In this document: positions 44,623 through 61,244 of the stretch, one piece after another | Position numbering within the stretch: position 1 is the stretch's first letter | Layout: every line of letters starts with the position of its first letter | Source: Candidatus Omnitrophica bacterium UBA6249 | GTDB taxonomy: Bacteria > Omnitrophota > Gorgyraeia > Gygaellales > Profunditerraquicolaceae | DNA length: 64,000 nt | Direction: 5' to 3' | Assembly (NCBI GenBank): GCA_002441305.1 | Contig: DJVT01000009.1 | Span: 345,210-409,209, forward strand | The notes under the pieces: generated by a model | What the model saw: only the letters and a program-made list of their open reading frames with translations | Told to the model about the DNA's origin: nothing | Databases searched by the model: none | Made by a program: the position numbers and the translations under genes

Positions 44623-44634
44623 AGGCCTCGTTGA

Positions 44635-46815: not shown

Positions 46816-46911
46816 AAAACATTACTTCTTTCTCTTTTTAGCCTTCTTCTTATTTGCGACCTTATCCCCCATCGGTTCTCACCCCCCTTCTATTTTTTAA
46901 CGCTTATAATA

Positions 46912-47328: not shown

Positions 47329-47345
47329 TTTTACCCCCTCCCTTT

Positions 47346-47985: not shown

Positions 47986-48441
47986 TTAAACGTTTAATAC
48001 TTCTTTCACCCTTCGTTTAATATATTCCATATTAAAAGGCTGATATACCCACTCTTGCACCCCCAATTCAATTAACTTCTCTTTGCCTCTGATATCTTGT
48101 AACGATGACACCACAATAACGCAGGTCCTTAAGCTCATCTTTTTGATTTGCCGCATTATACTTTCGCAATACTCAATCGTCGTTGTAACCCCAACAATAA
48201 CCATATCCACGCGCTTTTGAGCTAACAACTCAAATATTTCCGAATGGCTGGACAGAGAAACCGTATGATAGCCGGATTTTTCCAGAAGCTCTCTAAGGCC
48301 CCGGCCGGGATCATAGTATTTTTGAGCGATCAAAATGGTCAGTTTCGTTCCAATTTTATAGTCCTGCCTCTGTCTAAATAACCGGATTAAGACGCGCCAC
48401 ACCTCTGACATCCTCAATGGTATAAAAAGCACCTTGATCAA
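47986..48441 (-). CDS. Receiver-like domain protein lacking the phospho-acceptor Asp (pseudo-receiver)
   Basis: It has the REC-type pattern LTILIAQ...VDMVIVGVTT...CVIVVSS...KP-like FNM. The canonical DD pair and phospho-Asp are replaced (QK.. and G). The start is uncertain because the ORF overlaps the upstream gene. Confidence 0.5.
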   Translation of the reverse strand: MIKVLFIPLRMSEVWRVLIRLFRQRQDYKIGTKLTILIAQKYYDPGRGLRELLEKSGYHTVSLSSHSEIFELLAQKRVDMVIVGVTTTIEYCESIMRQIKKMSLRTCVIVVSSLQDIRGKEKLIELGVQEWVYQPFNMEYIKRRVKEVLNV

Positions 48442-48910
48442 ATTTCTTTATTATGCCTAAAACGTTATCTAACAACTTGCGCCGGACAATGACAAAAACA
48501 ATCTTCACCGGCCCCGCTGTCCCCTGTCCGTCAATCGTCGTTGCGCCGTATCCTTTGGAACGAAAATATCTCAATAAACTAGCCGGATTTTTATTCGTTA
48601 TAAACTGGACAGCTAAATTGCCTATGGCGATTTTTCGTTCGATTGTAATACCTACAAAAGTGCCCATACTAAAGCCGCCCGCAAAAGCGATATAGCTGAT
48701 CGGGTTATTCAAATTCTGCATAATTTGCGATATGCCGATAAGCCAAACAAGCATCTCAAAAAATCCAATAATAGCAGCTAATGCCCTTATCCCTCGGCTG
48801 ACAAAAATAATCCTGACAGCAGCCATACTGACGTCTGCCGCCCGCGCGAGAAAAATTAAAATAGGAATCAATATTGGAACAAAATCATTTTGCGGAATAA
48901 CAAAAGACAT
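48374..48910 (-). CDS. UPF0316 family membrane protein with DUF2179 domain
   Basis: 178 aa with three TM helices (...ARAADVSMAAVRIIFVSRG...) and a C-terminal soluble domain (GYGATTIDGQGTAGPVKIVFVIVRRK). Confidence 0.6.
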   Translation of the reverse strand: MSFVIPQNDFVPILIPILIFLARAADVSMAAVRIIFVSRGIRALAAIIGFFEMLVWLIGISQIMQNLNNPISYIAFAGGFSMGTFVGITIERKIAIGNLAVQFITNKNPASLLRYFRSKGYGATTIDGQGTAGPVKIVFVIVRRKLLDNVLGIIKKFDQGAFYTIEDVRGVARLNPVI

Positions 48911-48957
48911 GTCTAAAATACCTCCTTTTTAATTCTCGCTACTTAACACTGGCTAAG

Positions 48958-49140
48958 TTATTTTTCCCTTATGGACTCCTGGAATCCTATAGGCCACCCA
49001 GTTTTAAATTGATAAAACACACACCTTATAAAACTACCACGGCAATGTTCTTCCTGTCGTTTCTCACTGGGAGAAAAGGCATTACTCGATACTCCTTCGC
49101 AAAAATTATTCCTTTCTTTCGATATAAAATACGGACACAT
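48958..49140 (-). CDS. Small 4-Cys protein, paralog 1 (MCPYF...C...C..F..C..YQ)
   Basis: 60 aa. It shares MCPYF, four Cys at matching spacing, and a terminal YQ with the ORF at 50606-50797. It starts 3 nt after the dual-REC stop. Confidence 0.55.
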   Translation of the reverse strand: MCPYFISKERNNFCEGVSSNAFSPSEKRQEEHCRGSFIRCVFYQFKTGWPIGFQESIREK

Positions 49141-49142
49141 GA

Positions 49143-49871
49143 TTAATTTCCTCTGCCAACATTAAGAATGCGCTCAACTTTCTCTATGAGGATGCTGACA
49201 CCTTCCGCTTTATCAAAATAATCGTCCGCTTCTTTGATTAAAGACTGCTGATCATCTTTCGGAAAGACGCTAGACACTATGATTTTTACTGGAGGGGTTC
49301 TTCCCTTGATTCTTTCATAAACTTCCATGCCGATTTTCTTGGGAAGCGCGATATCAAGAATGACTAATCCAATACCCCGCTCTTTAGCAAACAATTCAAG
49401 TCCCGACTCTCCGTCTTCGGCTTCCAGAGTGCGGTATCCAAGATTCTCCAATTGGTTACTGAATAACTTTCTTATTTTGAATTCATCTTCGATAATAAGT
49501 ATCGTGTTTAACGGCATTAAACTGCGCGCAACTTTCTTGATTTTCTCAAGCAAAATATCGACACCTTGAGCTTTGTCATAGTACTCTGCGGCATCTTTCA
49601 TTATTTCCCGCTGTTCTTCAACAGGATAAACGCTCGTTACAATTACTTTTATGCTCTTATGAAATACCTGCATAAGATCAAACAATACGCTTCCATAAAC
49701 ATGAGGAAGGTTGATGTCCAGCAGGATAATATCAAAATGTTTTCTAAGTAAAATTTCGCTGGCTTGCACGGCGTCAGAAACGCTTACCACTGCATACCCT
49801 TCGCTTTCAAGCAATTCCGCATGTAACTTTCGCACCTTGTCCTCATCTTCAACTATCAATATCCTCATCAT
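49143..49871 (-). CDS. Response regulator consisting of two tandem receiver domains and no output domain
   Basis: 242 aa. REC1 reads ILIVEDE...FDIILLDINLP and REC2 reads ILIIEDE...GLVILDIALP. Both end with a similar ..DDYFDKA.GV.IL.EK motif. Confidence 0.8.
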   Translation of the reverse strand: MMRILIVEDEDKVRKLHAELLESEGYAVVSVSDAVQASEILLRKHFDIILLDINLPHVYGSVLFDLMQVFHKSIKVIVTSVYPVEEQREIMKDAAEYYDKAQGVDILLEKIKKVARSLMPLNTILIIEDEFKIRKLFSNQLENLGYRTLEAEDGESGLELFAKERGIGLVILDIALPKKIGMEVYERIKGRTPPVKIIVSSVFPKDDQQSLIKEADDYFDKAEGVSILIEKVERILNVGRGN

Positions 49872-49943
49872 TTAGAATTCCCGTCTTTTATTCGTTTAAT
49901 AAGCAGCAGTAAGGCTGGGAAAGCGTAAAATTGCGAATAATTC

Positions 49944-50609
49944 TCAAATCTTGGCAATATTCACAGTGTGCGTAGCAATATCTCTTACGCTCTGAATAAT
50001 AAATAATAAAACAGTTTCGCCTCTCACCGTCGATTCTGCTGTTTTATTTGTCTCTATTAACTCATCCTGTCTACGGCTGCATATCTTTTTTAGTGTCAGG
50101 CTTGTTAAAACAGTTTTCTTCGCTAACGCCGTGTCTTGTTTTAAAAATGAAATGACCGAATCCCAAACTATATTTTGAAAAATTATAGCGAATTGAGAAA
50201 TATTGATTTTATCCTTGTCAGGGATATTTGTATTCAAGCTTAATAAGCTCTCCGCAATACCGGCGGTTAAGTCCGTAATTTGTTTTAATTCGCTACTAAT
50301 GTTTATGCTTGAAGAGATGAATTTCAAGACACTGTCCTCGGGGTGATATTGTCTAACGATATTAGTAAAATATTCTTCGTAAGCGACGCAAAGAACCCTT
50401 ATTTTTTTGTTATTATCTATTATCTCTTGCGTATTCTCGGCATCAAAACGCATCAGAACGCCAGAAATGTTTCTTATTGCCTCCTGCGTCAAACGGCAAA
50501 TTTGAAGTAAATCATCGTTTAATTTCCGAAGTTCTTTCTCAATGGCTATCATTAAAACATCCTCCGTATTCATCCAATAATTGCGCAATAACCAAACTAA
50601 AATATTCAT
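49944..50609 (-). CDS. PhoU-domain-like protein
   Basis: 221 aa in two helical repeats ending in PhoU-like ...ELKQITDLTAGIAE and ...SVRDIATHTVNIAK. Confidence 0.5.
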   Translation of the reverse strand: MNILVWLLRNYWMNTEDVLMIAIEKELRKLNDDLLQICRLTQEAIRNISGVLMRFDAENTQEIIDNNKKIRVLCVAYEEYFTNIVRQYHPEDSVLKFISSSINISSELKQITDLTAGIAESLLSLNTNIPDKDKINISQFAIIFQNIVWDSVISFLKQDTALAKKTVLTSLTLKKICSRRQDELIETNKTAESTVRGETVLLFIIQSVRDIATHTVNIAKI

Positions 50610-50797
50610 GCCTCATCACTTTTTGATCCCCGCACGGATTTGATAATAATGGACTTCATTTGTAATTGATAGAGTGGGCAATTCATAAATTTACCGACAC
50701 AATATTGTCTTTTGCGTTTGATGTTGGGGCGAAATAAACCGTCTCCGTAACATCCGCAATGACCAATCGGTCTTGTAGCAACAAAATAAGGACACAT
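50606..50797 (-). CDS. Small 4-Cys protein, paralog 2
   Basis: 63 aa from the internal ATG (MCPYFVATRPIGHCGCYGDGLFRPNIKRKRQYCVGKFMNCPLYQ...). It has a 4-nt ATGA overlap with the PhoU-like gene. Confidence 0.55.
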   Translation of the reverse strand: MCPYFVATRPIGHCGCYGDGLFRPNIKRKRQYCVGKFMNCPLYQLQMKSIIIKSVRGSKSDEA

Positions 50798-50967
50798 GAT
50801 GCATTTCCTCTTAATAAGCAGCAACCCCTGGCCCCTGTAAAATTGAGGCTGCGAGAAAATGTTAAACAATCTCAAATCGTTGAATATTTTTTAAGCCCCT
50901 TAGCTGCTACAAATGTATCAAAAAGGGGATTAACGAAAGGTTAAATAATAATTAAAATTTTTAATGA

Positions 50968-52026
50968 TTATTCGTGAGGATTCGGAGGGATATCGCCGGC
51001 AATTCGAGGCAGGTCTACGGTAAAAACAGTGCCTTTTCCGATTTGACTGGACACCGTTATTTCACCTTGATGAAGTTTTGCTATTGATTGTGCGATGCTT
51101 AACCCTAATCCACTGCTGGGAGCAGTATCTTTTATTTTCTCACCAATCCGAAAGAACTTATCAAAAAGTCGCGGAAGGTTTTCTTGTTCGATGCCGATAC
51201 CGGTATCAGCGATGGAAATTCTGATGCGATCAGTTTCAAAATGGGCAACAATATCTATTTTCCCATCCTGCGGCGTGTATTTTATAGCATTATCAATAAG
51301 ACTTAAAAATAAACGCCGAAGATTTGGTTCATCCGCATTCACCAACGCCGTTGTGTCGGGAACTTGAGCATTGACCGCTATATTCTTTCCCGTGGCTAAA
51401 ATCTTGGCCTTTTCAAACAACACTATAACAAATTGACTTAAATCCAAAGGCTGTAGCTGCAAATCGTTGGAACGATAATTGACGCGAGTCAACAATAAGA
51501 GGTCTTCAATGATCTTAAACATCCGTCGCGTTTCTTCTAAGCTACCGATAATAACTTGCTTATACTCTTCTTTATCCCGTTCCTTTTTTAGGGCAACTTC
51601 CGCCTCTCCTCTCATGATTGCGAGAGGCGTTTTTAGCTCATGGGCAATATACGAACTCGATTCGGTGATATAGGCAAAGGCGGCTTCAAGGCGAGAAATC
51701 ATGTCATTGAAAGCCTTAACTAAAAACTGCGTCTCTTCACCGGCATTCTCGACCTTAACTCTTCTGCTTAAATCCTCATGAGTAATGCCCTCAGCTACCT
51801 CGGCAACTTCCTTGATTGGTTTAATAATCTTTCCTATTGAAATCTGGCTCATTAAATAACCCAGCAAAAAAACCGGAGGTAAAGGCATTAAAAGATAACA
51901 AATCATTTCAATATTCCGAAAATTGGGACGAAGCAAAAAAAGAACAGTATAATAACCCCCTAAAAATACACTCAATAATATGATGTATAAAAAACTGCGT
52001 TTAAAGCTAACGGTTTTGAAACGCAT
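50968..52026 (-). CDS. Sensor histidine kinase (2 TM, HAMP, HisKA, HATPase_c)
   Basis: 352 aa with H-box HELKTPLAIMRG, N-box LIDNAIKYT, and G-boxes DTGIGI and GLGLSIA. Confidence 0.9.
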   Translation of the reverse strand: MRFKTVSFKRSFLYIILLSVFLGGYYTVLFLLRPNFRNIEMICYLLMPLPPVFLLGYLMSQISIGKIIKPIKEVAEVAEGITHEDLSRRVKVENAGEETQFLVKAFNDMISRLEAAFAYITESSSYIAHELKTPLAIMRGEAEVALKKERDKEEYKQVIIGSLEETRRMFKIIEDLLLLTRVNYRSNDLQLQPLDLSQFVIVLFEKAKILATGKNIAVNAQVPDTTALVNADEPNLRRLFLSLIDNAIKYTPQDGKIDIVAHFETDRIRISIADTGIGIEQENLPRLFDKFFRIGEKIKDTAPSSGLGLSIAQSIAKLHQGEITVSSQIGKGTVFTVDLPRIAGDIPPNPHE

Positions 52027-52697
52027 TATTCCTCCCTTATCGTGTAACCTTTACCATGAATGGTATGAATAAGCGGTTTCTTAAAATCTTTATCTATCTT
52101 ATTACGTAAAAAACTGATAAATACATCAATAACATTGGTGAAACTATCGAAATCCTCATGCCAGACATGCTCAGAAATCGTTGTCCGGGTAACAACATGA
52201 TTGGCATTAAGCATTAGGTATTCCAGAAGCGCGAATTCCTTACTGCTGAGCTGAATTTCTTTTCCCGCTCTTTTAACGTTATGACGTAATTGGTCTAGTT
52301 CTAAATCTCCAATTTTTAAAATGCCAGTCTTATCATCCCTATTCCTTCTTAGTAATGCTCCGATCCTAGCCGAAAGCTCTTCGAAATCAAACGGCTTCGC
52401 AAGATAATCATCCGCTCCGGAATTTAATCCTAAAACCTTATCCCTCACCTGATTTTTTGCGGTAAGCATTAAAATGGGCACGTTGATCTTCTTTTTTCTT
52501 AACTCTCGGCATATAGTGATCCCGTCTATATGCGGAAGCATGACATCAAGAATAATCAAATCATACGGGTTTATTTCCGCCAGAAACATGGCTTTCTCCC
52601 CATCGGTCGCCACATCAACAACATAATTCTCTTCTTTCAGCCCGCGCTCAATAAAATTAGCTATTTTTATTTCATCTTCTACTAATAATATCCGCAT
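52026..52697 (-). CDS. OmpR-family response regulator
   Basis: 223 aa with the REC domain ILLVEDE...DLIILDVMLP...LTAK and a winged-helix C-terminus. Its stop overlaps the kinase start. Confidence 0.9.
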   Translation of the reverse strand: MRILLVEDEIKIANFIERGLKEENYVVDVATDGEKAMFLAEINPYDLIILDVMLPHIDGITICRELRKKKINVPILMLTAKNQVRDKVLGLNSGADDYLAKPFDFEELSARIGALLRRNRDDKTGILKIGDLELDQLRHNVKRAGKEIQLSSKEFALLEYLMLNANHVVTRTTISEHVWHEDFDSFTNVIDVFISFLRNKIDKDFKKPLIHTIHGKGYTIREE

Positions 52698-52714
52698 TAT
52701 TTGCTCCTAAGAAT

Positions 52715-54175
52715 TTATTCTTTTAATCGTGCCAAAGCACATTGCAAAACAGAAAAATCTTCCGCATTTGCCAGCACCAATAAAACATCGCCGCCCTCGA
52801 TCACGGTTGACCCGGACGGAATAACAAATTTGTCGTTGCGCGAAACAAGCATGATCAGGCATTTCACCGGAACATTCAATTCCTTGATCATCTTGCCAAT
52901 AGCCTCTGAATTATACGGCACGATAACATCCGTCAGTTCCGCGTCAATGCCTTCAACTTTCTCAAATTCTATAGGGTATGCTTTCTTGTCAGGCAAAGGC
53001 ACATCCAACTTTAGCAGTTTTGAAACCAGAGGAATTGACGTGCCCTGAATAAAAACAGAAGCAATGACAATGAAAAACACGATATTAAAAATTGTCTCGG
53101 CCTGAGGAATGCCTGCCGCGAGCGGAAATGTGGCCAAGATGATCGGAACCGAGCCCCTCAATCCTACCCACGAAAGCATGATCTTTTTCGGCACGGCGAA
53201 TTTAAACGGAAGTAAGCAGAGAAAAACGCTCAAAGGCCGGGCAATAAACATGAGGACAATCGTAACCAGCAACCCTGTTCCGATAAGCGGAACCAAGTGA
53301 GAAGGATAAACGAGCAAACCTAAAGTCACGAACATGGCAATTTGGCTGATCCAAGCCAAACCGTCATGAAATTTCATAATGGATTTCTTATTAGGAAATT
53401 CCGTCTGCGCTAGACCGAGCCCAGCAAGATAAACCGCAAGGATCCCGTTTCCCTTTAAAAGAACTGCAATAACGTAAGTAAACAAGATCAATGAAATTGT
53501 TATAATTGGATAAAGGCCTTCATAATCTAATTTAAGCCGCTTGATAAAGAAAACGATGGCCTTCGCCATTAAATAACCGACAAGCGCCCCCATCCCCATA
53601 TCCAGAACGAATCTCGGAATCAGCGAAACGAGCCCTGATCCTTTCACGGTCAAAAGGCTCAAAAACCCCATTGTCAGAAAAATAGCCATCGGATCATTAC
53701 TGCCGGACTCGAATTCGAGCAACGGTTTCAATGGCTTCTTCAAACTTATGCGTCTTGATCTTAGAATAGCGAATACGGCGGCGGCGTCTGTAGATGAAAC
53801 GATAGATCCAAGCAACACACCGTCTAATAGAGAAAATTTGAGGACATAAACAGCAAACAACCCCGTAATAATTGCCGTAACCAATACTCCAAGAGTCGAA
53901 AGCACGATCCCCGGGAGAATAATTGGTCTTGTGTCTTTCCAGTTAGTATCAAGCCCGCCTGAAAAGATAATAAATATAAGTGCCAAAATACCGATCTGCT
54001 TCGCCAGTTGAGCATTATCAAAATAGATCTTGCCGATCCCTTCCGATCCGGCAAGCATCCCAACCGCCAAAAATAACAACAACACGGGAACCGCGAACTT
54101 GTCCGATATCTTGCTCGAAACAACGCTCACGAACATTAAAACCGAAGCCCATAATAAAATAGTTTCAAATGCCAT
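52715..54175 (-). CDS. nhaP2: K+/H+ antiporter NhaP2/CvrA type (CPA1) with C-terminal TrkA-C (RCK_C) domain
   Basis: 486 aa with about 12 TM helices, an N-terminus typical of NhaP2 and a C-terminal RCK_C-like segment (VIPSGSTVIEGGDVLLVLA). Confidence 0.8.
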   Translation of the reverse strand: MAFETILLWASVLMFVSVVSSKISDKFAVPVLLLFLAVGMLAGSEGIGKIYFDNAQLAKQIGILALIFIIFSGGLDTNWKDTRPIILPGIVLSTLGVLVTAIITGLFAVYVLKFSLLDGVLLGSIVSSTDAAAVFAILRSRRISLKKPLKPLLEFESGSNDPMAIFLTMGFLSLLTVKGSGLVSLIPRFVLDMGMGALVGYLMAKAIVFFIKRLKLDYEGLYPIITISLILFTYVIAVLLKGNGILAVYLAGLGLAQTEFPNKKSIMKFHDGLAWISQIAMFVTLGLLVYPSHLVPLIGTGLLVTIVLMFIARPLSVFLCLLPFKFAVPKKIMLSWVGLRGSVPIILATFPLAAGIPQAETIFNIVFFIVIASVFIQGTSIPLVSKLLKLDVPLPDKKAYPIEFEKVEGIDAELTDVIVPYNSEAIGKMIKELNVPVKCLIMLVSRNDKFVIPSGSTVIEGGDVLLVLANAEDFSVLQCALARLKE

Positions 54176-54229
54176 AAGTGAATTCTGTTTTTACCTTAAC
54201 CAATTCAATTTTTTTGCATAACTTCTTAA

Positions 54230-56110
54230 TCAATCTGCACCTATCAACGCCTCCGCCAAATCCGCCATGCTGTGTCTATAAGGTAGACAACGGCCATCCG
54301 AAGGTACGCAAAAGTATACGCTTTCCCTTCGGGGAACCTTCGCCTTCGGCTCGGTTTCCTCGGTGCTTTTCTTCGCCTTTTTTGGCGTCATTTCTCTCTT
54401 TGTTTGACATTTTACTCCTTCTTTCAAACTGTCATCCTGAGGAAGGCCGCAGGCCGACCGAAGGATCTCATCCTTAGCCAGATTCTTCGCCTTCGGCTCA
54501 GAATGACGGACTTTCAGTGCCTCGTCATAGCACATCTTCCACGGCTGATTAATATCAACCTTAACAATTTCCTGATTTTGAATATATATCCCTTTAAATA
54601 TAATCCTCATAAACGTCTTTATAAGGTAATCCATCTGCTGGGTGTTGGGATTACTCCTCAATTTCAATAGAAAATCCTGCGTGGCTTTCACCAGATTAAC
54701 CGCGTTACGTTTTTCAAGGATCTTTAACTGGATCGACTTTATATCCTGTCTGAGCTTCTTCTCCTCATTCCTGAGAAGTTCAGCCTTGTCTTTATAAATA
54801 TCAATATTGATCTTATCCTCTGAGAAAACCTCATAAAGCGCCTTCTGTTTTTCAAGGTTCTTGGCCAACGCCTTTTCCGTATCTTCCAACTGCTCGATAT
54901 AACACTGTTCAGGCTCAGTTGCGCTTAACTTGATCATGTCCCCCAGTTCTTCGATAACATGCAAATTTCTACTTATCGTATCAATAATATCCCAAACCTG
55001 TTTGTTGATCCCATCGGCCGTAACTGATTTATTCTTGCACTTAACATACGATACACCGACAGATGAACAGCAATACCACGGCCTACGTTCCTTCGTCCTG
55101 TGGTTCTTCGTTAAAGTCAACCCTCGGTAATTTCGCCCGCATTCATGGCATTTTAAAACACCGGACAGGTGATAAACATTGTTGCGAAATCTCACGACTT
55201 TATTTGTGCGGTTTCTATCAAGCAGTTTCTGCGCCTTATCAAACACCTCTTGAGTGATGATCGCTTCATGGCAATCCTTCACCTCAATAATCTTAGACGG
55301 ATCATTATTCACATACTTGTATCCCTTACCCTCGCCATTATGCGTTTTCTCTTTTTTCTCATACCGCTTTTTATTCCACACCAGCATGCCCAGATACGTC
55401 TTATTCTTGAGAATCGATGAAATAAATTTGGTATAAAACTTCCCGCCCTGACGTGATTTGATGCCTAAATTATAATAATGCCCGGCGATCTGAGACGTAC
55501 TTTTACCGCTAATATACATATCAAAAATCTCTTTAACGATCTTCGCTTCTTCGTCGTGGACTTCCAGCTTCTTGATCTCTTTATTGTAACGGTAACCATA
55601 AGGAGCATACCGTGCGCCTTGCCAGTGCCCACGCTTAACTCCCACAACCATGCCCGGGAATACGCGCTCAACCAGACGATTGCGTTCAAACTCCGCGCAA
55701 CTGCCCAACATCTGTATTGCCATCTTACCCGCGCTTGATGTGGTATCAAACGGCTCAGTCGCTGATTTGTAACCGATCCCTAACGACTCAAACTCCTCAA
55801 GTAACGCCAAAAGATCCTTTAACTTCCTGCTAAGCCTGTCCTGCTTATAAACCATTACCAAATCAAACTGCTTATTCTTCGCGTCAAACAAAAGCCTCTG
55901 CAAAGCTGGCCTGTCCATATTTCCACCGGAATAACCGTCATCCATATAAACATCTTTACCGGACATCGTGCAAACAACATCCCAGCCAAAGTTCTTGGCA
56001 TACTGCAAAAGGTAATCCCGCTGAACTTCCAGCGAAAACCCCTCCCGCGCCTGATCCTCTGTGCTGACTCTTGTGTATAAAGCTACTTTCATGTTCTCCT
56101 GCTCTGTCAT
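54230..56110 (-). CDS. Large serine recombinase (integrase 2) carrying an in-frame repeat insertion near the C-terminus
   Basis: 626 aa, collinear with integrase 1 (ALYTRVSTEDQAREGFSLEVQR..., zinc ribbon, coiled coil). The probable start is MKVALY at 56092. The tail reads across the att core into the distal arm of element 1. Confidence 0.9.
   Translation of the reverse strand: MTEQENMKVALYTRVSTEDQAREGFSLEVQRDYLLQYAKNFGWDVVCTMSGKDVYMDDGYSGGNMDRPALQRLLFDAKNKQFDLVMVYKQDRLSRKLKDLLALLEEFESLGIGYKSATEPFDTTSSAGKMAIQMLGSCAEFERNRLVERVFPGMVVGVKRGHWQGARYAPYGYRYNKEIKKLEVHDEEAKIVKEIFDMYISGKSTSQIAGHYYNLGIKSRQGGKFYTKFISSILKNKTYLGMLVWNKKRYEKKEKTHNGEGKGYKYVNNDPSKIIEVKDCHEAIITQEVFDKAQKLLDRNRTNKVVRFRNNVYHLSGVLKCHECGRNYRGLTLTKNHRTKERRPWYCCSSVGVSYVKCKNKSVTADGINKQVWDIIDTISRNLHVIEELGDMIKLSATEPEQCYIEQLEDTEKALAKNLEKQKALYEVFSEDKINIDIYKDKAELLRNEEKKLRQDIKSIQLKILEKRNAVNLVKATQDFLLKLRSNPNTQQMDYLIKTFMRIIFKGIYIQNQEIVKVDINQPWKMCYDEALKVRHSEPKAKNLAKDEILRSACGLPQDDSLKEGVKCQTKREMTPKKAKKSTEETEPKAKVPRRESVYFCVPSDGRCLPYRHSMADLAEALIGAD
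54295..54314. repeat. att core copy 2 (CATCCGAAGGTACGCAAAAG), the junction between element 1 and element 2
   Basis: Identical to 36258-36277. It lies in the 3' end of integrase 2. Confidence 0.8.
54431..54507. repeat. Inverted pair of the GTCATYCTGA...GAAGRATC repeat family (miniature element) inside the integrase 2 ORF
   Basis: GTCATCCTGAGGAAGGCCGCAGGCCGACCGAAGGATC (54431-54467) faces GATTCTTCGCCTTCGGCTCAGAATGAC (54481-54507). The pair is translated as RHSEPKAKNLAKDEILRSACGLPQDDS. Confidence 0.8.
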
Positions 56111-56138
56111 TCTGAGGCCCCGCAGGGGCCGAAGAATC
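56106..56138. repeat. Solo copy of the same repeat family between xis2 and int2
   Basis: GTCATTCTGAGGCCCCGCAGGGGCCGAAGAATC. It is absent from the homologous xis1/int1 junction, where the two genes overlap. Confidence 0.8.
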
Positions 56139-56314
56139 TAATCTTTCAAAGTCCCCCGCCATTCTTTAATCTTCTTAATACACTCATCCGTAAACACCGG
56201 CCAATCCCTGTAATCGCGCTTCGGTTTGATCCAGCCTTTACGCACCCAATGGATCATAGTCTGGCGATGCACCCCTAAAATCTTTGCCGTCTCTGTCATC
56301 GTGTATGTCTTCAT
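56138..56314 (-). CDS. Excisionase-type HTH protein, RDF candidate (element 2 copy)
   Basis: MKTYTMTETAKILGVHRQTMIHWVRKGW...; 51 of 58 residues are identical to the element 1 copy. Confidence 0.65.
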   Translation of the reverse strand: MKTYTMTETAKILGVHRQTMIHWVRKGWIKPKRDYRDWPVFTDECIKKIKEWRGTLKD

Positions 56315-56323
56315 AAGCAAGTT

Positions 56324-56360
56324 GTCATCCTGACCCTGAACGAAGTGAAGGGGAAGGATC
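56324..56360. repeat. Repeat family copy on the 3' side of the GIY-YIG gene
   Basis: GTCATCCTGACCCTGAACGAAGTGAAGGGGAAGGATC. It ends at the GIY-YIG stop codon. Confidence 0.8.
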
Positions 56361-56653
56361 TAAATAATACTTTCATATAAATCCTTCCACTCCGGGTTAT
56401 TCTTTTCAATTAAAGCGATCTTCTTTTTCCTAAGCCATCCTTTAATCTGCTTCTCTCGTTCTATAGCTGTCATCATGTCATCCGAAACTTCAAAATGAAC
56501 CAATTTATGCACATTGTATTTTTTGGTAAATCCATCGACCATTTTATTCTTATGCTCATAAACCCGCTTAACCAGATCACTCGTTACACCTGTATAAAGA
56601 ACCTTATTATGCACATTCGTTAAAATGTAAACGTATCCTTGTTTTTCTCTCAT
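56360..56653 (-). CDS. Small GIY-YIG nuclease-domain protein (UPF0213/COG2827 type)
   Basis: 97 aa with GYVYILTNVHNKVLYTGVTSDLVKRVYEHK (GIY...YTG), then ..E...IK.W.R.KK. Confidence 0.85.
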   Translation of the reverse strand: MREKQGYVYILTNVHNKVLYTGVTSDLVKRVYEHKNKMVDGFTKKYNVHKLVHFEVSDDMMTAIEREKQIKGWLRKKKIALIEKNNPEWKDLYESII

Positions 56654-56658
56654 CTTCA

Positions 56659-56693
56659 GATCCTTCGGTCGGCTTCGCCTCCCTCAGGATGAC
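56659..56693. repeat. Repeat family copy on the 5' side of the GIY-YIG gene, inverted relative to 56324-56360
   Basis: GATCCTTCGGTCGGCTTCGCCTCCCTCAGGATGAC, which is the reverse complement of GTCATCCTGAGGGAGGCGAAGCCGACCGAAGGATC. Confidence 0.8.
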
Positions 56694-56733
56694 GTGCCGT
56701 TCATTGAAGGCCAGTATACCTCATTATACAACC

Positions 56734-56928
56734 TTATACAAGAGGATTCTTCTCCGTATCATAGCAAACCAAAAACATTTTCGATAAGACCTCTATCCCA
56801 TCATAAAACGATTTACGAGCCTCCTGTATTTCCGCGATAGACATACCCCGGCTTTTGAGTTTTTCCTCTAAAGCCTCCCATCCCCGCGAATTCTCCGTAA
56901 TTGTTCTATTCTTCTGCTTCTCCATCAT
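56734..56928 (-). CDS. Conserved small element protein (element 2 copy)
   Basis: NSRGWEALEEKLKSRGMSIAEIQEARKSFYDGIEVLSKMF aligns with 38162-38365. I chose the start by homology (MMEKQKN). Confidence 0.55.
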   Translation of the reverse strand: MMEKQKNRTITENSRGWEALEEKLKSRGMSIAEIQEARKSFYDGIEVLSKMFLVCYDTEKNPLV

Positions 56929-57532
56929 GACCTTTACGTACACCGGCAAATTCGTCGATAATATCGGCTATCGCCTCATAAAGAAGCGTTTCAATTTCCC
57001 GAGGTTCTCTCATCGCTAAACGAGGCGCCATTATTGTCGGCAATGCTAAAAATGACCGCTTAACTACCATGATCCTCTCAATTCTTCCCTTCTCAACTTC
57101 ATCTCTTGGCAAGACCTCGCCTAAAGCCTTTTTTAAATCAATCTCTGACAAAAGAGCCTTGTTCTTCCGATATTCAATATCCCATTTTTCCTTCTCGGTA
57201 TCCCGCACATCCCGATAACTCTGCTGAGTCATTCGCCATGCCTTAATTTCCAAAAGATCGTAATGACCTTCGGGCGTCACAGGCATTCCTTCTTTCGCCC
57301 AGTAGTAAACAGTCCTGACAGACACATTCAAAGCCTTGGCGACCTTCTCTTTGGTATCCACAATACCGTTAGGTAAATCAGATTCCGCCTCAAGCCTTTC
57401 AAGTTCTTTAAGCTCTGCTGGTGTTAGCGGCGTACCGCTATGAAGCTTCTCATACAGATATAAGTGCCGCTTTTTCCGTGCTATCTCCACGATATTGGGT
57501 TTCTTGTTTTCCGCTGTTTTATTCTCTTCCAT
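56906..57532 (-). CDS. HTH protein resembling a phage Nu1-type small terminase subunit (tentative)
   Basis: 208 aa. KEKVAKALNVSVRTVYYWAKEGMPV...YDLLEIKAW, followed by a coiled coil, parallels the lambda Nu1 layout (HTH, ..GMPV.., ..W.., helical C-terminus) as I recall it. Confidence 0.4.
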   Translation of the reverse strand: MEENKTAENKKPNIVEIARKKRHLYLYEKLHSGTPLTPAELKELERLEAESDLPNGIVDTKEKVAKALNVSVRTVYYWAKEGMPVTPEGHYDLLEIKAWRMTQQSYRDVRDTEKEKWDIEYRKNKALLSEIDLKKALGEVLPRDEVEKGRIERIMVVKRSFLALPTIMAPRLAMREPREIETLLYEAIADIIDEFAGVRKGHDGEAEE

Positions 57533-57687
57533 ACTGAAATCCTCCGTTTCAAAATTTGCAGGTTATTAACCCCTGATTCAGACCTTAAAATCTTTAAATA
57601 CTCCTTTTTCTATAGGGAAAATACACTTCTCCCTTGCTTCGCCGCTTCAATCTTATTGAACATGCAACCTAAAAATTGAAGTTAATA

Positions 57688-57790
57688 TCACTGACAGACC
57701 GCGCCTCGCCCGACCCTCGGCAAACCCCCGTGGTAAGGACCCATTGTTTAAAAGATGCCGGAGTTACATGTAGTCGCAAGACTACACTCC
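57688..57790. repeat. Conserved GC-rich motif copy 3 plus adjacent hairpin
   Basis: TCACTGACAGACCGCGCCTCGCCCGACCCTCGG..GTAAGGACCC (57688-57742). A hairpin GGAGT..GTAGTC-GCAA-GACTAC-ACTCC follows at 57760-57790. Confidence 0.8.
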
Positions 57791-57899
57791 TGCCCTCAGG
57801 CGACGGAAAACGCGCGTCCACCCAGAATCCCGGTTTCCATTTCTTCTTTTTCTTTTTTCTATACCAGTTGTAGTAATACATTTCTTATTCTCCCTTTCC

Positions 57900-58035
57900 G
57901 TCATGCGCCGAATGACAGAAATGACAACTTTTCCCACACTTATTTATTTTTTCTTTCCTGCTTTCATCCCCTTCCACTCCTCCATCCCTAAACACAATTA
58001 ATGAATATTCCTGTCATTCTTGTCATAGTTGTCAT
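57900..58035. repeat. Inverted iteron clusters flanking an AT-rich spacer at the primase 2 stop (origin candidate)
   Basis: ATGACA occurs at 57912 and 57921. The inverted word TGTCAT occurs at 58012, 58021 and 58030. All recur at a 9-bp period and are separated by about 85 bp of T-rich DNA. Confidence 0.5.
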
Positions 58036-60176
58036 TAATAAGGCCGTCCGGAAATATCCACTTCACCCTCTCTGCGAAGCCGAATGCCTTTCCACGTCCT
58101 CGCGGAACTACACCTTCCTTTATTAACCGAATCATATTGCCGGATTAATTCACGGCCGAAAGTGATCTTGCTAAGCGGCCGATACCCGCTATCCAGACAC
58201 CAGTTGTTATATGCCTGATACAGATCATCCTTGCTGATATCATCATGCGCATCGAGAACACACATCTCCTCGACAAAGATGATCACGTTATTGTTCTCCT
58301 TGCGATACTCATCTTTTACGTTAAGCATTGAGGCGCTTTCCTCAAAATATCCACGATCCCTTAACCTCTTCAGTCCGTTAAGCGCCCACAAGAAAATGCC
58401 ATCAAGCTCACTTGAAGCGATCTTGTATTTAAGTTTATGATCACGTTCTTCTTTATTGAATTGACGGTTAAAAGGCAGGATTAAAAGACGGCGGTAATAC
58501 CCTTCGCTCTTATCACCCACGCGCGGCATATTGTTTGTCGAAAATAGAAGCTTGCAGTAAGGCTTAAACTGAAAAGGCTGTCCATACTTCTCATCAGCCG
58601 AAATCGTATCGCCGGTAACGATGGCCTTGAACATATTGTCATAGACATTCGTCTTAGCATTGGTCTCAAGGCTGATATTGACCAGCTTGTCCCGAAGCCG
58701 GGCGATATAGTGCGAATCATTAAACTTCTCAAGCGCGATCGATGAACAATTTTCTTTGCCGATAAGCTCCTCAAGCACATACAAAACAACACTCTTGCCG
58801 TTCGCTCCCTCGCCAAATAAAAAGAGTGCCTTCTCATAATCATTTTCCCGCGTCAGGCAATACCCGAAAAATTCCTGCAGTAACTCAATACGCTCCGCGT
58901 CATTTTCAAATATCTGATCCAGACTCTTTTTCCATACCGGACAGTCGGCATCATCCTGATACGTCACATTAAGCTGATTAATGGAATACACATCCGCTGA
59001 ATGCGGAACAAGCCGCATATTATCAATGTCATAAAGCCCGTTTTTGACATTCAGAAAAGAAACACCATTAATAATGTCCGGCTTAATAAATGTCTCGGTC
59101 TTTAACGCCACAAGCACATTGCGAAGCCTGCTTGCCGAAAACATCGCCCCGCAAACATCCTTGATCCATTTCTGCACCTCTTCGATAAAAAGCGACCGGT
59201 AACAACCGCTTTGGTATTCATAATATGTATCCGCGAAATTAATCAGCCTGTGCTTCTCAAGAATGGCGTCCGCCACTTCATTGGAGTTTATCTTCTTAGG
59301 TGTATATTCTGATGAATTGCCCGCGCTGTAAACATCACGGCAACCGGCAATAGCTTTAGCGATAGTATCCGCACCGTACGTCCTGCCGTCACTGAAATGC
59401 GCTTCATCCCATTTCGGCCGCATAAGACCCGATGAACGAAACACAAGATCCATAAGCCCGGCATCTTTACCTGTCCAGAACGCCAGCTTATTGCAAAGCG
59501 CCAGATCCGCTTCACTTTGCGAAGGATAATCCGCATGCCAATTCCCTTCATACAGCCGGAAAAACGCGTCCTTATCTTTACTTCTCTTGACCCTGTTCAA
59601 AATCGTCTTAACGCTCTTGCCCTGTTTCTCTGTTCCCTGAACCTCCGCGAAAACCCGATTCAATTCATCCTTACGAGTCTCAATGGAGCTCTTGCCCGCA
59701 ATAATCCGTCCGGTGATCGTAAAAAACCGGTTTTTCGAATACATCTCAACATTACAAGAGCTGAACTTGCGTTCACGCGCGATCTCACCCTTACAGATAA
59801 TATGTGCGCCCTTGCCGCCGGGAGAATATTCCGTATAACTGTTTAATGTGGAAATAATCGTTCGGGCGAGTGATGACATACCGTCGTCAGTCATGCAACT
59901 GTCTATATCAATCCCGACATACGGCGAAGTGATGGCAAACCCTATCGCGTCCAAATTAAGCGCCTCAACTCGCTCCAATAACTCATCAAACGAACACCAT
60001 GTGCTTGAATCATTACACTTGGCAGGCCCGCCGGTTTTGATATTTATAGGAACTTTCTTCGGCTTTTTCCTGGGTTGAGGCAGAAATTTAAATCCAACCC
60101 AGATAGAAAGGTCTTTTAACTCTTGAGGGATATTATCAATATCCCACCTTTTCTCTTTTCTTCTCTCTTCGTTCAT
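58035..60176 (-). CDS. Prim-Pol (AEP) primase fused to a P4/D5-type SF3 helicase
   Basis: The N-terminal half is homologous to primase 1 (VGIDIDSC, SPGGKGAHII, YPSQSEADLALCNKLAFWTGKDAG...). The C-terminal half is of the P4-family type, with FLFGEGANGKS. I place the start at MNEERRKEKRW (60176), 4 nt after the upstream stop. Confidence 0.8.
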   Translation of the reverse strand: MNEERRKEKRWDIDNIPQELKDLSIWVGFKFLPQPRKKPKKVPINIKTGGPAKCNDSSTWCSFDELLERVEALNLDAIGFAITSPYVGIDIDSCMTDDGMSSLARTIISTLNSYTEYSPGGKGAHIICKGEIARERKFSSCNVEMYSKNRFFTITGRIIAGKSSIETRKDELNRVFAEVQGTEKQGKSVKTILNRVKRSKDKDAFFRLYEGNWHADYPSQSEADLALCNKLAFWTGKDAGLMDLVFRSSGLMRPKWDEAHFSDGRTYGADTIAKAIAGCRDVYSAGNSSEYTPKKINSNEVADAILEKHRLINFADTYYEYQSGCYRSLFIEEVQKWIKDVCGAMFSASRLRNVLVALKTETFIKPDIINGVSFLNVKNGLYDIDNMRLVPHSADVYSINQLNVTYQDDADCPVWKKSLDQIFENDAERIELLQEFFGYCLTRENDYEKALFLFGEGANGKSVVLYVLEELIGKENCSSIALEKFNDSHYIARLRDKLVNISLETNAKTNVYDNMFKAIVTGDTISADEKYGQPFQFKPYCKLLFSTNNMPRVGDKSEGYYRRLLILPFNRQFNKEERDHKLKYKIASSELDGIFLWALNGLKRLRDRGYFEESASMLNVKDEYRKENNNVIIFVEEMCVLDAHDDISKDDLYQAYNNWCLDSGYRPLSKITFGRELIRQYDSVNKGRCSSARTWKGIRLRREGEVDISGRPY

Positions 60177-60180
60177 TTCT

Positions 60181-60411
60181 CTACACTCCGTTTTGAAATA
60201 AAAAGTCTTTAACTTTGCGGTAGCACTGAAAAAGTTCTTCTTCTTTAGAATTATTAAAAAACTTATCCGCGAGCTTCTTCGCCTTCTCGCAATCCTCGAA
60301 TAGAACACGCTTTTGACGGCCGTAACCCGAAAGCGCCTTCATCACACAACCCTTCTGAACTAAATACGCGGCCAGATATATGTTTCCCGCTTCAAAATAC
60401 TTCTCTTCCAT
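60181..60411 (-). CDS. Small protein upstream of primase 2 (possibly DUF5659-like)
   Basis: 76 aa reading MEEKYFEAGNIYLAAYLVQKGCVM.... It occupies the slot held by the AlpA-like gene in element 1 but is not homologous to it. Confidence 0.4.
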   Translation of the reverse strand: MEEKYFEAGNIYLAAYLVQKGCVMKALSGYGRQKRVLFEDCEKAKKLADKFFNNSKEEELFQCYRKVKDFLFQNGV

Positions 60412-60544
60412 TGTTCTCTACTCCCCACTATAGGTATTACGTTTTTGGCTTCAGAATTTCGCTTCTATTTTGAGTTTATCAGAAGAAAAAATGAGCCTTC
60501 CCGGTTTTACCCAAGATTGCCCAATTTTTATCAAAGACTAAGCA

Positions 60545-60583
60545 TAAAAAAATGGAGACAGCCCAATGAAGGACCATCTCCAT
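60545..60583 (-). terminator. Rho-independent terminator after the 204-aa gene
   Basis: The minus strand has the stem ATGGAGA / TCTCCAT followed by TTTTTTTA. It is positionally equivalent to 42461-42488. Confidence 0.6.
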
Positions 60584-60632
60584 AAAAGAAATTATTCAGA
60601 TTTTTTTGCTATTTAGGAATAAAAGGAATCAA

Positions 60633-61244
60633 TCAGAAGGAAGAATCTTTGTCATCCGAAGCGGGAAGTTCTTCGCAGGCGATCTGCCATTTAGTGCCGA
60701 CTTGGCGGGCTAGGATCTGGTTATTCTTAAGCCAGCTCTGCATGGTTTTGCGGCTTATATTGAAAACTTCAGCCCAATGAGTTATTGAGTGAGGATTTGA
60801 CCACCCGCTTCGAGGAATCAATTTTGGTCTGGTCTTAAACTCCGAAGATAATATTCTATTCCTTGCCCCCATAATACGGTGCATCATATCAATGTCCATA
60901 TCTCTCGTCTTTTCACACCACTCGTTATAACCGCCGGGAACCCACGATGGGAACTCGGGTATAACCGGCGTCTCATTAGGCCCGAATAAAAACTCCAAAA
61001 TAGGTATAGCCGCCTGATTAGCTTCCTGATGAATCTTTGCTAAATCAGGCTGTTTTACTTTATGCTTCTTGAGTGTTTTCTCAAACTTATTAAACACATC
61101 ATCTTTTGTCAGCCAATCATAGTGATCGGTCGATGAAAGTCCAAGGCGGTCAATAGCCAGCACCCACTCACTGGCGGCTTTTTGGTATGCCATCCACTTC
61201 TTGGCAAATTCCGACACACAATCAAGTTTACTTTTCATTTTCAT
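60633..61244 (-). CDS. Conserved 204-aa element protein with C-terminal excisionase-type HTH (element 2 copy)
   Basis: It aligns end to end with 42523-43134. I chose the start MKMKSKLD (61244) by homology instead of the 240-aa ORF-track start. It overlaps the stop of the giant ORF by 17 nt. Confidence 0.7.
   Translation of the reverse strand: MKMKSKLDCVSEFAKKWMAYQKAASEWVLAIDRLGLSSTDHYDWLTKDDVFNKFEKTLKKHKVKQPDLAKIHQEANQAAIPILEFLFGPNETPVIPEFPSWVPGGYNEWCEKTRDMDIDMMHRIMGARNRILSSEFKTRPKLIPRSGWSNPHSITHWAEVFNISRKTMQSWLKNNQILARQVGTKWQIACEELPASDDKDSSF

What the first reader, a model, noticed from the sequence alone, without database searches (positions are those of the whole stretch)
54230..54340. 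The att core is embedded in the integrase ORF, so the integrase C-terminal tail depends on integration state
Integrase 1 ends two codons past the core (..CVPSDAR-stop). Its last codons and its stop come from miaB-side DNA. Integrase 2 reads through its core for 21 more codons into the distal arm of element 1 (..CVPSDGRCLPYRHSMADLAEALIGAD-stop). After excision and circularisation, integrase 1 would be joined to that same distal arm and would acquire the 21-residue tail. The protein made from the integrated form therefore differs from the protein made from the excised form. This could bias the direction of recombination.
Basis: inference. Interest (0 to 1): 0.6.

Follow-up and report, generated by a model that had tools for sequence, protein, structure and literature searches.

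The report
Serine integrase rewrites its own tail
Two related mobile elements sit in tandem in the start of a tRNA-modification gene, and their serine integrase cuts inside its own last codons, so the enzyme ends in two host-encoded residues when joined to the host gene but carries a conserved 21-residue tail when joined to an element arm; whether this changes its activity is untested.

Summary

**In the window**
- Int1 (36250-37935, minus strand) and Int2 (54230-56110, minus strand) are large serine recombinases.
- External junctions (L008, L002, L019) narrow the attB/attP common core to 11 bp, ACCTTCGGATG. It lies inside both ORFs.
- Int1 ends ...SD-AR-stop. The stop is the host's ATGAA, the Met-Asn codons of the GCQMN motif of a MiaB-family methylthiotransferase.
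- Int2 reads 21 codons into the distal arm of element 1.

**Across the clade**
- In 40 of 48 related genome loci (Omnitrophota, Elusimicrobia, WOR-1) the integrase ends on that same host TGA.
- In all 40 the integrase's 3' end also encodes, in another frame, a substitute start and N-terminus for the interrupted gene.
- Where the integrase is joined to an element arm, the tail is conserved. It shows synonymous codon changes, a fixed stop position, and conservation that falls to random right after the stop.
- AlphaFold predicts the tail as a short helix on a disordered tether, at low confidence.

**Status**
- A functional difference between the two forms is plausible but untested. The C-terminus of SPbeta integrase has been linked to directionality.
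- The precedent is phage Mx8, which uses a tyrosine integrase.
- I found no report of this arrangement for serine integrases.
- Verdict: a new variant of a known kind.

The parts
36250..37935 (-). Int1, a large serine recombinase of 561 aa; junction form P1-O-B', ending ...FCVPSD-AR-stop
   Evidence: The identical protein is found on at least 10 public contigs.
54230..56110 (-). Int2, a large serine recombinase (626 aa; gene callers start at 56092, giving 620 aa); junction form P2-O-P'1, ending ...FCVPSD-GRCLPYRHSMADLAEALIGAD-stop
   Evidence: AlphaFold model.
36258..36268 (-). 11-bp common core ACCTTCGGATG at the junction of element 1 with the host gene. The inferred central dinucleotide TG is at plus-strand 36258-36259.
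   Evidence: Breakpoints of identity in L019 (ends at 36258) and L002 (ends at 36247). Dyad NCCGANGG read from the sequences.
54295..54305 (-). 11-bp common core at the junction of element 2 with element 1. The inferred central TG is at 54295-54296.
   Evidence: L008 is identical to the window from 54305 downwards.
54233..54295 (-). The 21 tail codons of Int2, encoded by the distal (P') arm of element 1. This is the conserved block.
   Evidence: Nucleotide identity is 0.53-0.81 for the first 60 nt after the crossover, then about 0.25-0.3.
36250..36258 (-). Host-derived end of Int1: Ala, Arg and the TGA stop. This is the +1 frame of the host codons TGC CAG ATG AA (Cys-Gln-Met-Asn).
35162..36280 (-). 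MiaB-family methylthiotransferase without a TRAM domain. The host part begins at the core. A substitute GTG start at 36280 (VLLRTFGCQMN...) is supplied by the element inside the 3' end of int1.
   Evidence: The gene caller in L004 uses this GTG.
36258..54305 (-). Element 1 (about 18 kb). In order: P'1 arm, Na+/H+ exchanger, two-component and PhoU genes, GreA, LexA-like repressor, DUF1016, DpnI, primase-helicase, small HTH protein, Int1.
54295..64000 (-). Element 2, partial; it runs off the window. In order from the window edge: protein of about 1,072 aa without a Pfam family, 203-aa HTH protein, primase-helicase, GIY-YIG, small HTH protein, Int2. The HsdS and SIR2 genes lie beyond the window.
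37907..38113 (-). 68-aa HTH_17/MerR_1 protein that overlaps the start of int1. Candidate directionality factor or excisionase.
56138..56314 (-). 58-aa HTH_17/MerR_1 protein just upstream of int2. Homolog of the 68-aa protein.

Best explanation
**Shown**
- Two related integrative elements sit head-to-tail in the first codons of a MiaB-family radical-SAM methylthiotransferase gene of an Omnitrophota bacterium.
- Each element is moved by a large serine recombinase whose attP lies across the last codons of its own gene.
- The attB/attP common core is 11 bp, ACCTTCGGATG.
- Recombination therefore swaps the 3' end of int.
  - Joined to the host gene, the ORF ends two codons later on a TGA formed by the host's conserved ATG-AA (the Met-Asn of GCQMN).
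  - Joined to an element arm, in a circle or behind another element in a tandem array, it continues for about 20-45 codons.
- The same P arm also encodes, one frame over, a substitute start codon and first strand (...LLRTFG) for the interrupted gene.

**Inferred**
- The crossover dinucleotide is TG. It is the T of the Asp codon plus the first base of the next codon.
- The tail is a selected peptide: a short amphipathic helix on a disordered tether. It is not random read-through.
- The tailed and the truncated integrase differ in activity or in response to a directionality factor, as Int and IntX of phage Mx8 do.
- My working guess is that the tailed form is the integration-proficient enzyme. 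The truncated form made from a singly integrated element would then be the one open to the small HTH protein co-transcribed with int, which drives excision.
- I put about 0.9 on the anatomy and about 0.35 on a real functional difference.
For: **Anatomy**
- Basic features.
- Junction set: P1-O-B' and P2-O-P'1 in the window, B-O-P'1 in L008, P1-O-B' on a second host gene in L002-6, and P1-O-P'x in L019.

**The whole clade behaves the same way**
- The best 120 protein clusters, down to 42% identity, nearly all end x-[ST]-[DAV]-[AV]-[RK]-stop.
- In 40 of 48 genome loci the int ORF ends on the TGA of T-[FY]-G-C-Q-M-N, with the methylthiotransferase following.
- In all 40 the methylthiotransferase frame stays open into int and contains a start codon. 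Some give native-looking N-termini such as MPKIYIKTFGCQMN.

**Tail conservation**
- Shared motif [GDAV]-R-[WC]-x(2,3)-Y-x3-[MLI]-x2-[LFIM]..., seen with integrases only 40-42% identical.
- Ala-Glu-Ala is invariant but uses synonymous codons, and third codon positions vary most.
- Identity falls to random immediately after a stop at a conserved position.
- Only the int frame is open.

**Structure.** Folded to about residue 545, then a disordered linker that spans the core codons, then a helix at 609-618.

**Plausibility of a functional role**
- The SPbeta integrase C-terminus contacts its directionality factor and has been called part of a 'toggle switch'.
- The extreme C-terminus of phiC31 integrase forms part of the surface that binds its directionality factor.

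**Recent mobility.** An identical Int1 is found at two different target genes.
Against: - No excised circle (P1-O-P'1) and no intact target gene for this strain were found by exact look-up. No contig showed terminal overlap. Every tailed junction seen could be a tandem array.
- Selection on the tail is only moderate, with pN/pS about 0.5.
- Tail length varies from 3-4 residues (GRWK, GGT) to about 45.
- Near-identical integrases occur with different tail families. The observed tail therefore belongs to the neighbouring element, not necessarily to the integrase's own element.
- The AlphaFold confidence of the tail helix is below 50, and no docking site is predicted.
- The ORF may cross the core only because the P arm must encode and help express the substitute 5' end of the host gene.
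- No directionality factor has been shown; the HTH_17 proteins are only candidates.
Confidence: 0.6

Rival explanations
1. The tail is a by-product. The int ORF crosses the core only because the P arm must carry, and help translate, a substitute 5' end for the interrupted methylthiotransferase gene. The tail and its loss have no effect on recombination.
For: - In 40 of 40 integrated members the P arm encodes a start codon and a native-like N-terminal strand in the host-gene frame.
- The int stop overlaps the host ATG (ATGA), an arrangement typical of translational coupling.
- The linker and the core codons are predicted to be disordered.
- Very short tails exist (GRWK, GGT).
- pN/pS is only about 0.5.
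Against: - This does not explain why about 60 bp beyond the crossover are conserved up to a stop at a fixed position and not beyond it.
- It does not explain the synonymous changes at invariant residues.
- It does not explain why unrelated P' arms (families A, B, C, D) share the same W/C..Y..hydrophobic periodicity.
Confidence: 0.3
2. The conserved 60 bp is a DNA signal: an extended P' arm or a binding site for an accessory protein. The peptide it encodes is incidental.
For: - The first 9 bp or so of P' resemble B' (GCCGATGG against CCAGATGA), and a TATAG motif sits about 20 bp out. Both are expected of a half-site.
- Nucleotide identity peaks at 36-48 nt from the crossover.
- TATAG also gives the stop that ends the 17-residue host stub peptide at attL.
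Against: - Serine-integrase att sites are 40-50 bp in total (abstract). Conservation to +60 nt is therefore unexpected for a half-site.
- Third codon positions vary most, and Ala-Glu-Ala is kept through synonymous codons.
- Families A and B share a peptide pattern but not DNA sequence.
Confidence: 0.08
3. The two 'cores' are merely the conserved 3' coding sequence of two paralogous integrases. The 18 kb between them is ordinary chromosome, not an element in a tandem array.
For: - Nine of the 20 shared bp are indeed P-arm homology.
- Element 1 carries housekeeping-looking cargo: Na+/H+ exchanger, two-component system, PhoU, GreA.
Against: - L008 joins the far end of the 18 kb to the missing first 11 codons of the methylthiotransferase. 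The window joins the near end to the rest of that gene.
- The same 18-kb layout recurs behind other integrases (L036, L039).
Confidence: 0.02

Closest known systems
Myxophage Mx8 Int/IntX (attP inside int; integration replaces the integrase C-terminus)
   Same: - The attP core lies inside the integrase coding sequence.
- Integration creates a recombinant gene with a new 3' end, so the enzyme's own reaction changes its primary sequence (review PMC6070905).
   Different: - Mx8 Int is a tyrosine recombinase with arm-type sites and targets a different kind of site.
- Here the enzyme is a large serine recombinase.
- The integrated form is cut back to two residues by a stop codon that a conserved host protein motif supplies.
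- Activity differences are demonstrated for Mx8 but not here.
Large serine integrases with directionality factors (phiC31, Bxb1, A118/LI, TP901-1, SPbeta SprA/SprB)
   Same: - Same domain set: catalytic domain, recombinase domain, and zinc ribbon with an inserted coiled coil.
- Simple att sites with little attB/attP identity.
- The C-terminus lies near the directionality-factor site in SPbeta and phiC31.
   Different: - In the papers I read, attP is treated as a separate short site. I found none that describes it inside the int ORF.
- This clade has about 60-150 extra C-terminal residues: a small domain, a disordered linker, and the junction-dependent tail.
Islands that insert in the 5' end of a housekeeping gene and restore it (dusA-associated integrase islands, PMC4482086)
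   Same: Insertion in the 5' end of a conserved tRNA-modification gene. A new 5' end is supplied by the element here; I did not read the dusA paper's text on this point (one search failed), so that part of the comparison is from memory.
   Different: - Those islands use tyrosine integrases.
- I did not check whether their replacement 5' end overlaps the integrase ORF; here it is overprinted on it.
SCC-type tandem arrays built by Ccr serine recombinases
   Same: - Several elements with related serine recombinases are stacked at one chromosomal site.
- CcrB and CcrC are the best NCBIfam matches to Int1.
   Different: - The scores are far below the Ccr cut-offs (196 bits against 900).
- From memory: the SCC target is the 3' end of rlmH, and no rewriting of the recombinase ORF is known.
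Integration-dependent immunity of mycobacteriophages (attP inside the repressor gene; PMC3694055)
   Same: Integration truncates a phage protein by moving its 3' end, which gives a switch that depends on state.
   Different: The gene affected there is the repressor and the integrase is a tyrosine enzyme. Here the LexA-like repressor (45765-46415) is far from the att site.

Membership tests
Large serine recombinase (serine integrase) | N-terminal resolvase-type catalytic domain with the serine nucleophile | tested here: met
   PF00239, E = 8e-34 (Int1) and 1e-34 (Int2). YTRVSTEDQ motif. The TP901-1 integrase catalytic domain is the best PDB match.
Large serine recombinase (serine integrase) | Recombinase domain plus zinc-ribbon domain carrying an inserted coiled coil | tested here: met
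   PF07508 and PF13408. The AlphaFold model has long antiparallel helices at 395-480 after the zinc ribbon. Aligns to SPbeta integrase residues 63-454.
Large serine recombinase (serine integrase) | Short att sites with imperfect dyad symmetry around a non-palindromic central dinucleotide | tested here: inconclusive
   The 11-bp common core is bounded by four independent junctions. All four half-sites read NCNGANG outward from TG (my reading). The cleavage position has not been determined experimentally.
Large serine recombinase (serine integrase) | Excision needs a separate directionality factor | not testable with these tools
   There are only candidates: HTH_17/MerR_1 proteins of 58 and 68 aa directly upstream of each int.
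Mx8-type integrase rewritten by its own reaction | attP core inside the integrase ORF, so that integration gives a different C-terminus | tested here: met
Mx8-type integrase rewritten by its own reaction | The two forms differ in recombination activity or specificity | not testable with these tools
   Only indirect evidence: tail conservation.
Mx8-type integrase rewritten by its own reaction | Tyrosine recombinase | tested here: not met
   Serine recombinase domains only. This is therefore an analogue of Mx8, not a member of its family.
5'-end gene-restoring islands (dusA-type) | Insertion in the 5' end of a conserved gene, with a replacement 5' end on the element | tested here: met
   40 of 40 loci keep the host frame open and have a start codon inside int. 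Expression of the restored gene was not tested.
5'-end gene-restoring islands (dusA-type) | DusA-associated tyrosine integrase | tested here: not met
Ccr recombinases of SCC elements | Score above the NCBIfam CcrA, CcrB or CcrC cut-off | tested here: not met
   CcrB 195.8 bits against a cut-off of 900; CcrC 157.7 against 900.
Integration-dependent immunity | attP inside the repressor gene | tested here: not met
   The core lies in int. The LexA-like repressor is at 45765-46415.

The most novel reading that the evidence does not exclude
The junction-dependent tail is a built-in directionality switch.
- The candidate directionality factor, the small HTH protein, overlaps the int start and is probably always made together with the integrase.
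- On this reading, the tethered amphipathic helix of the excised form occupies or shields the site on the zinc-ribbon/coiled-coil hinge where that factor would bind. This forces integration.
- Integration deletes the helix and makes the enzyme responsive to the factor, which permits excision.
- The direction of a serine integrase would then be set by a record of its own last reaction written into its gene, rather than by regulated expression of the factor.
Probability: 0.15. Interest if true: 0.85.

Novelty: new variant of a known kind. Interest (0 to 1): 0.6.

Why it matters
- Serine integrases are valued as genome-engineering tools because they are strictly one-directional until a separate factor is added. 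A natural clade in which the enzyme's own reaction adds or removes a conserved C-terminal peptide would offer a new and very compact way to couple direction, or activity, to integration state. It can be tested with two constructs per enzyme.
- The clade shows an unusually economical att design. One stretch of about 30 bp serves as a recombination half-site, as the integrase C-terminus, and as a replacement start for the host gene.
- A conserved host protein motif (GCQMN) guarantees both a conserved target and the integrase's stop codon.
- This explains how near-identical elements occupy different methylthiotransferase paralogs, and how related integrases do so across several poorly studied phyla.

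Tried and rejected
- **IMG/VR.** An exact scan for the P arm plus core gave only two unrelated chance hits. A protein-based scan gave two relatives, one of them tailed (L016).
- **Exact look-ups.** In-silico Int1 plus tail, Int2 ending AR, VR, VK or AK, and the reconstructed intact methylthiotransferase are all absent from the collection.
- **Far end of element 2 (B-O-P'2).** Not reached. It lies beyond the window and beyond the 10-kb flanks. Walking out with the homolog of the 1,072-aa protein led to a different locus without an integrase.
- **Sigma-70 promoter scan of int1.** No more sites than in shuffles, so there is no evidence for an internal promoter for the host gene.
- **Remnant junction between GreA and the LexA-like module of element 1.** Considered, because L019 and L031 have one there. 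None was found in the window.
- **Shine-Dalgarno reading of GGAGG inside the tail.** Rejected, because other family-A arms have GAAGC at that position.
- **Literature.** Searches for a serine integrase with attP inside its ORF, or for methylthiotransferase genes as targets, found nothing relevant. One literature look-up failed on term syntax.
Full report
**1. What is in the window**

Two ORFs on the minus strand encode large serine recombinases: 36250-37935 (Int1, 561 aa) and 54230-56110 (Int2, 626 aa; gene callers use Met7, giving 620 aa). Both have Resolvase, Recombinase and Zn_ribbon_recom domains. The closest solved structures are the TP901-1 catalytic domain and SPbeta integrase.

The 20-mer CATCCGAAGGTACGCAAAAG occurs exactly twice, at 36258-36277 and 54295-54314. 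None is expected by chance. Int1 ends ...FCVPSD-AR-stop. Int2 ends ...FCVPSD-GRCLPYRHSMADLAEALIGAD-stop.

The window matches ENA contig ERZ27315056 k141_274781 at 100% over the 21.7 kb compared. Sources name the integrases 'Candidatus Omnitrophota'. One close relative comes from the Velamenicoccus archaeovorus genome.

**2. Where the exchange happens**

Four independent junctions bound the exchange point.
- **L008** joins the sequence that forms Int2's tail directly to ATGAAAAAAAATATTTTCTTTAAAACCTTCGGATG. This encodes MKKNIFFKTFG, the missing start of a methylthiotransferase. TrkH and a transpeptidase lie upstream and there is no integrase. Identity to the window starts at 54305.
- **The window** joins Int1's end to the rest of that gene...TFG|CQMNVRDSE.
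- **L002-L006** join the same Int1 arm (99.8% identical DNA) to a different methylthiotransferase. Identity stops at 36247, which is 11 bp past the core, because both hosts encode CQMN.
- **L019** joins Int1 (100% identical to the window over the 1,138 bp held) to a different element arm. Identity stops at 36258.

From these, the sequence common to attB and attP is ACCTTCGGATG, at window 36258-36268 and 54295-54305. All of it lies inside both ORFs.

Reading outward from the TG at its end, all four half-sites follow NCNGANG. P and B read TCCGAAGG, P' reads GCCGATGG or GCCGTTGT, and B' reads CCAGATGA. I therefore infer TG as the central dinucleotide. It is the T of the Asp codon plus the first base of the next codon. 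This last step is inference from symmetry, not a mapped cleavage.

The reconstructed sites on the minus strand are:
- attB: TTCTTTAAAACCTTCGGA-TG-CCAGATGAATGTCCGGG
- attP1: GTGTGCTTTTGCGTACCTTCGGA-TG-GCCGTTGTCTACCTTATAGACAC

**3. The arrangement is a tandem array**

Reading along the minus strand, the order is: element 2 (over 9.7 kb, running off the window), the junction P2-O-P'1, element 1 (about 18 kb), the junction P1-O-B', and then the host gene.
- Element 1 carries a LexA-like repressor, DUF1016, DpnI, a primase-helicase, a small HTH protein and Int1.
- It also carries a co-oriented cargo block: Na+/H+ exchanger, two-component system, PhoU, GreA.
- The same layout follows other integrases in L036 (about 90% identity) and L039.
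- I could not reach the far end of element 2.

**4. The same design runs through a whole clade**
- **Protein clusters.** Of the best 120 clusters related to Int2 (down to 42% identity), nearly all end x-[ST]-[DAV]-[AV]-[RK]-stop. That is the +1 reading of T-[FY]-G-C-[QK]-M-N.
- **Species-representative genomes.** In 40 of 48 loci with 40-75% identity, the int ORF stops on the TGA inside ATGAA of a downstream methylthiotransferase. These come from Omnitrophota, Elusimicrobia, WOR-1 and some bins labelled Planctomycetia.
- **The other 8 loci.** Three carry tails. The rest are cut by contig ends or are damaged.
- **More distant serine recombinases** (L093-L124) do not do this.
- **At 50% clustering**, at least a dozen clusters share the ending.
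- **The target gene.** It is a true MiaB in L002 (445 bits against a cut-off of 355). In the window it is a MiaB-like paralog without a TRAM domain, next to miaA (345 bits).

**5. The P arm is double-coding**
- In all 40 integrated loci the methylthiotransferase frame stays open for 10-113 codons into int and contains ATG, GTG or TTG.
- Several give native-looking N-termini: MPKIYIKTFGCQMN, MRRYYIKTYGCQMN, MLRRVYVCTYGCQMN.
- In the window a GTG at 36280 gives VLLRTFGCQMN.... One public annotation uses it (L004).
- So the element replaces the 11 codons it cuts off.
- Whether the rescued gene is expressed is not shown. A sigma-70 scan found nothing above background.

**6. The tail looks selected**

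A metagenome scan for P arm plus core followed by a purine, which excludes host junctions, returned 27 loci. About 15 of them are integrase junctions. Their tails fall into families:
- A: G-R-[CW]-x-x-Y-[RS]-x-x-M-x-x-[LIM]-A-E-A-[LIV]-x-G-E
- B: [DE]-E-W-[LV]-x-x-Y-[RK]-T-T-[LM]-x-F-L-K-E-L-F..., about 45 aa
- Further variants appear among the protein hits, for example RWFxYGQRIILGM and LRLYNxLxSFF.

All families share the pattern W/C, then Tyr, then hydrophobic residues at helical spacing. The pattern occurs with integrases as little as 40-42% identical to Int2 (P0143, L071).

In family A (nine arms):
- Nucleotide identity is 0.53-0.81 over the first 60 nt after the crossover and 0.24-0.31 from there on. 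The stop lies at codon 25-27 (codon 33 in one arm), counting from the Phe of FC[VA]PSD, although the downstream sequences are unrelated.
- Third codon positions vary most.
- Ala-Glu-Ala is invariant through GCG/GCC/GCA and GAG/GAA.
- Only the int frame is open. Its amino-acid identity is 0.59, against 0.42-0.43 in the other two frames.
- pN/pS is about 0.5, which indicates moderate constraint.

The first 9 bp or so of P' resemble B' (GCC CGA TGG against GCC AGA TGA). A Trp or Cys codon sits exactly where the host supplies the stop.

Family-B arms are followed by conjugation-like genes, so they are element arms and not alternative host sites.

**7. Structure**

AlphaFold was run with 113 aligned sequences and gave a mean pLDDT of 81.
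- Int2 is folded through the catalytic, recombinase and zinc-ribbon domains.
- A long coiled coil follows (395-480), then a small extra domain (484-545).
- Residues 544-611, which include the core codons, have pLDDT below 50.
- A helix is drawn at 609-618 with low confidence.

The tail is thus a short helix on a flexible tether of about 60 residues. In a monomer model it docks nowhere.

**8. How it most likely works**

Shown: the integrase's reaction changes its own C-terminus, and the tail is present only at P-O-P' junctions.

Inferred: the two forms differ functionally. The reasons are:
- The tail is conserved.
- The open frame through a poorly conserved linker is kept in every member.
- In SPbeta integrase the C-terminus moves to contact the directionality factor and has been proposed as part of a 'molecular toggle switch' (Abe et al. 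2021, cited).
- In phiC31 the extreme C-terminus is part of the factor-binding surface.
- Fusing a directionality factor to an integrase C-terminus through a flexible linker is known to work.
- A conserved HTH_17/MerR_1 protein of 58-68 aa lies just upstream of int2 and overlaps the start of int1. If it is the factor, it is probably co-expressed with the integrase. A second cue for direction would then be useful.

The main rival is that the ORF crosses the core only to serve rescue of the host gene and the tail is irrelevant. The data do not exclude this.

Note also that the tail depends on the junction partner, not strictly on integration. Int2 is integrated yet tailed.

**9. Comparison with known systems**
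- The concept matches phage Mx8. There attP lies within int, and integration makes intX with a new C-terminus and altered activity. Mx8 Int is a tyrosine recombinase, however.
- Rescue of a gene's 5' end recalls the dusA-associated islands.
- Stacking of elements recalls SCC arrays, but the Ccr models score far below their cut-offs.
- I found no paper describing a serine integrase with attP inside its ORF, or methylthiotransferase genes as targets. A recent survey of Omnitrophota genomes mentions site-specific recombinases only in general terms.
- The library does not hold subscription-only papers, so absence is not proof.

**10. Verdict**

The structural interpretation is supported and extended to a clade. 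The functional interpretation is plausible but untested. This is a new variant of a known kind, with interest 0.6.

Noticed in passing
L096, L099, L100, L103, L104, L108, L109 (genome loci, Gaiellaceae and Solirubrobacterales): A distant serine-recombinase clade (30-32% identity) ends ...GLEPPTS..RRSPN-stop. The last 64 nt or so of the ORF overlap a tRNA-Ala, tRNA-Val or tRNA-Ile gene on the opposite strand. An att site inside the integrase ORF may therefore be more widespread among serine integrases.
   Followed up: partly
L009:700-1120: The distal arm of element 1 is joined here not to an integrase but to a perfect palindrome, CATCCAAAAGTTTT-TGTC-AAAACTTTTGGATG. A direct repeat of about 100 bp and a GIY-YIG gene lie upstream. 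The arm resembles the host B arm. Unexplained.
   Followed up: no
L031:3040-3280: A cassette without an integrase: only the last 60 codons or so of an int, the core, and a family-A tail. It lies between a GreA homolog and a LexA-type module. It is either a deletion remnant or a site that could be mobilised in trans.
   Followed up: partly
window 36250-39733 versus L002-L006: The identical Int1 protein, with 99.8% identical element DNA, sits in two different target genes. One is a true miaB next to nadA; the other is the TRAM-less paralog next to SPOR, TPR and miaA. This points to recent movement.
   Followed up: yes
window 35162-36280 and 31627-32544: The target methylthiotransferase lacks the C-terminal TRAM domain; it matches profile positions 2-371 of 437. 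It lies three genes from miaA.
   Followed up: partly
window 61228-64000; L010/L011:1-4865; L125:2701-12265: Element 2 carries HsdS, a SIR2_2 protein and a protein of about 1,070 aa without a Pfam family (139 homologs at E<=1e-100). The same block (HsdR/M/S, SIR2, 1,068-aa protein) occurs in L125 at another locus without a primase or integrase. It looks like a portable defence module.
   Followed up: partly
L018, L030, L042: A hairpin-like repeat, GAAGGTGCGCAAAA-N13-TTTTGCGCACCTTCGGATG, contains the core sequence but is not attached to an integrase. Its nature is unknown.
   Followed up: no
P0143 and P0007 (Velamenicoccus archaeovorus genome): In the complete V. archaeovorus genome, an integrase only 42% identical to Int2 (BU251_02785) carries exactly the tail GRCLPYRHSMADLAEALIGAD. 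An Int1 homolog (BU251_02880) lies 19 locus-tag numbers away. A similar tandem may therefore exist in that genome.
   Followed up: partly
window 54236-54294 (minus strand), attL form in L008: In the host-gene frame, the conserved TATAG of family-A arms supplies a TAG. This ends the cut-off host start as a 17-residue peptide (MKKNIFFKTFGWPLSTL). All nine arms have a stop in that frame.
   Followed up: partly
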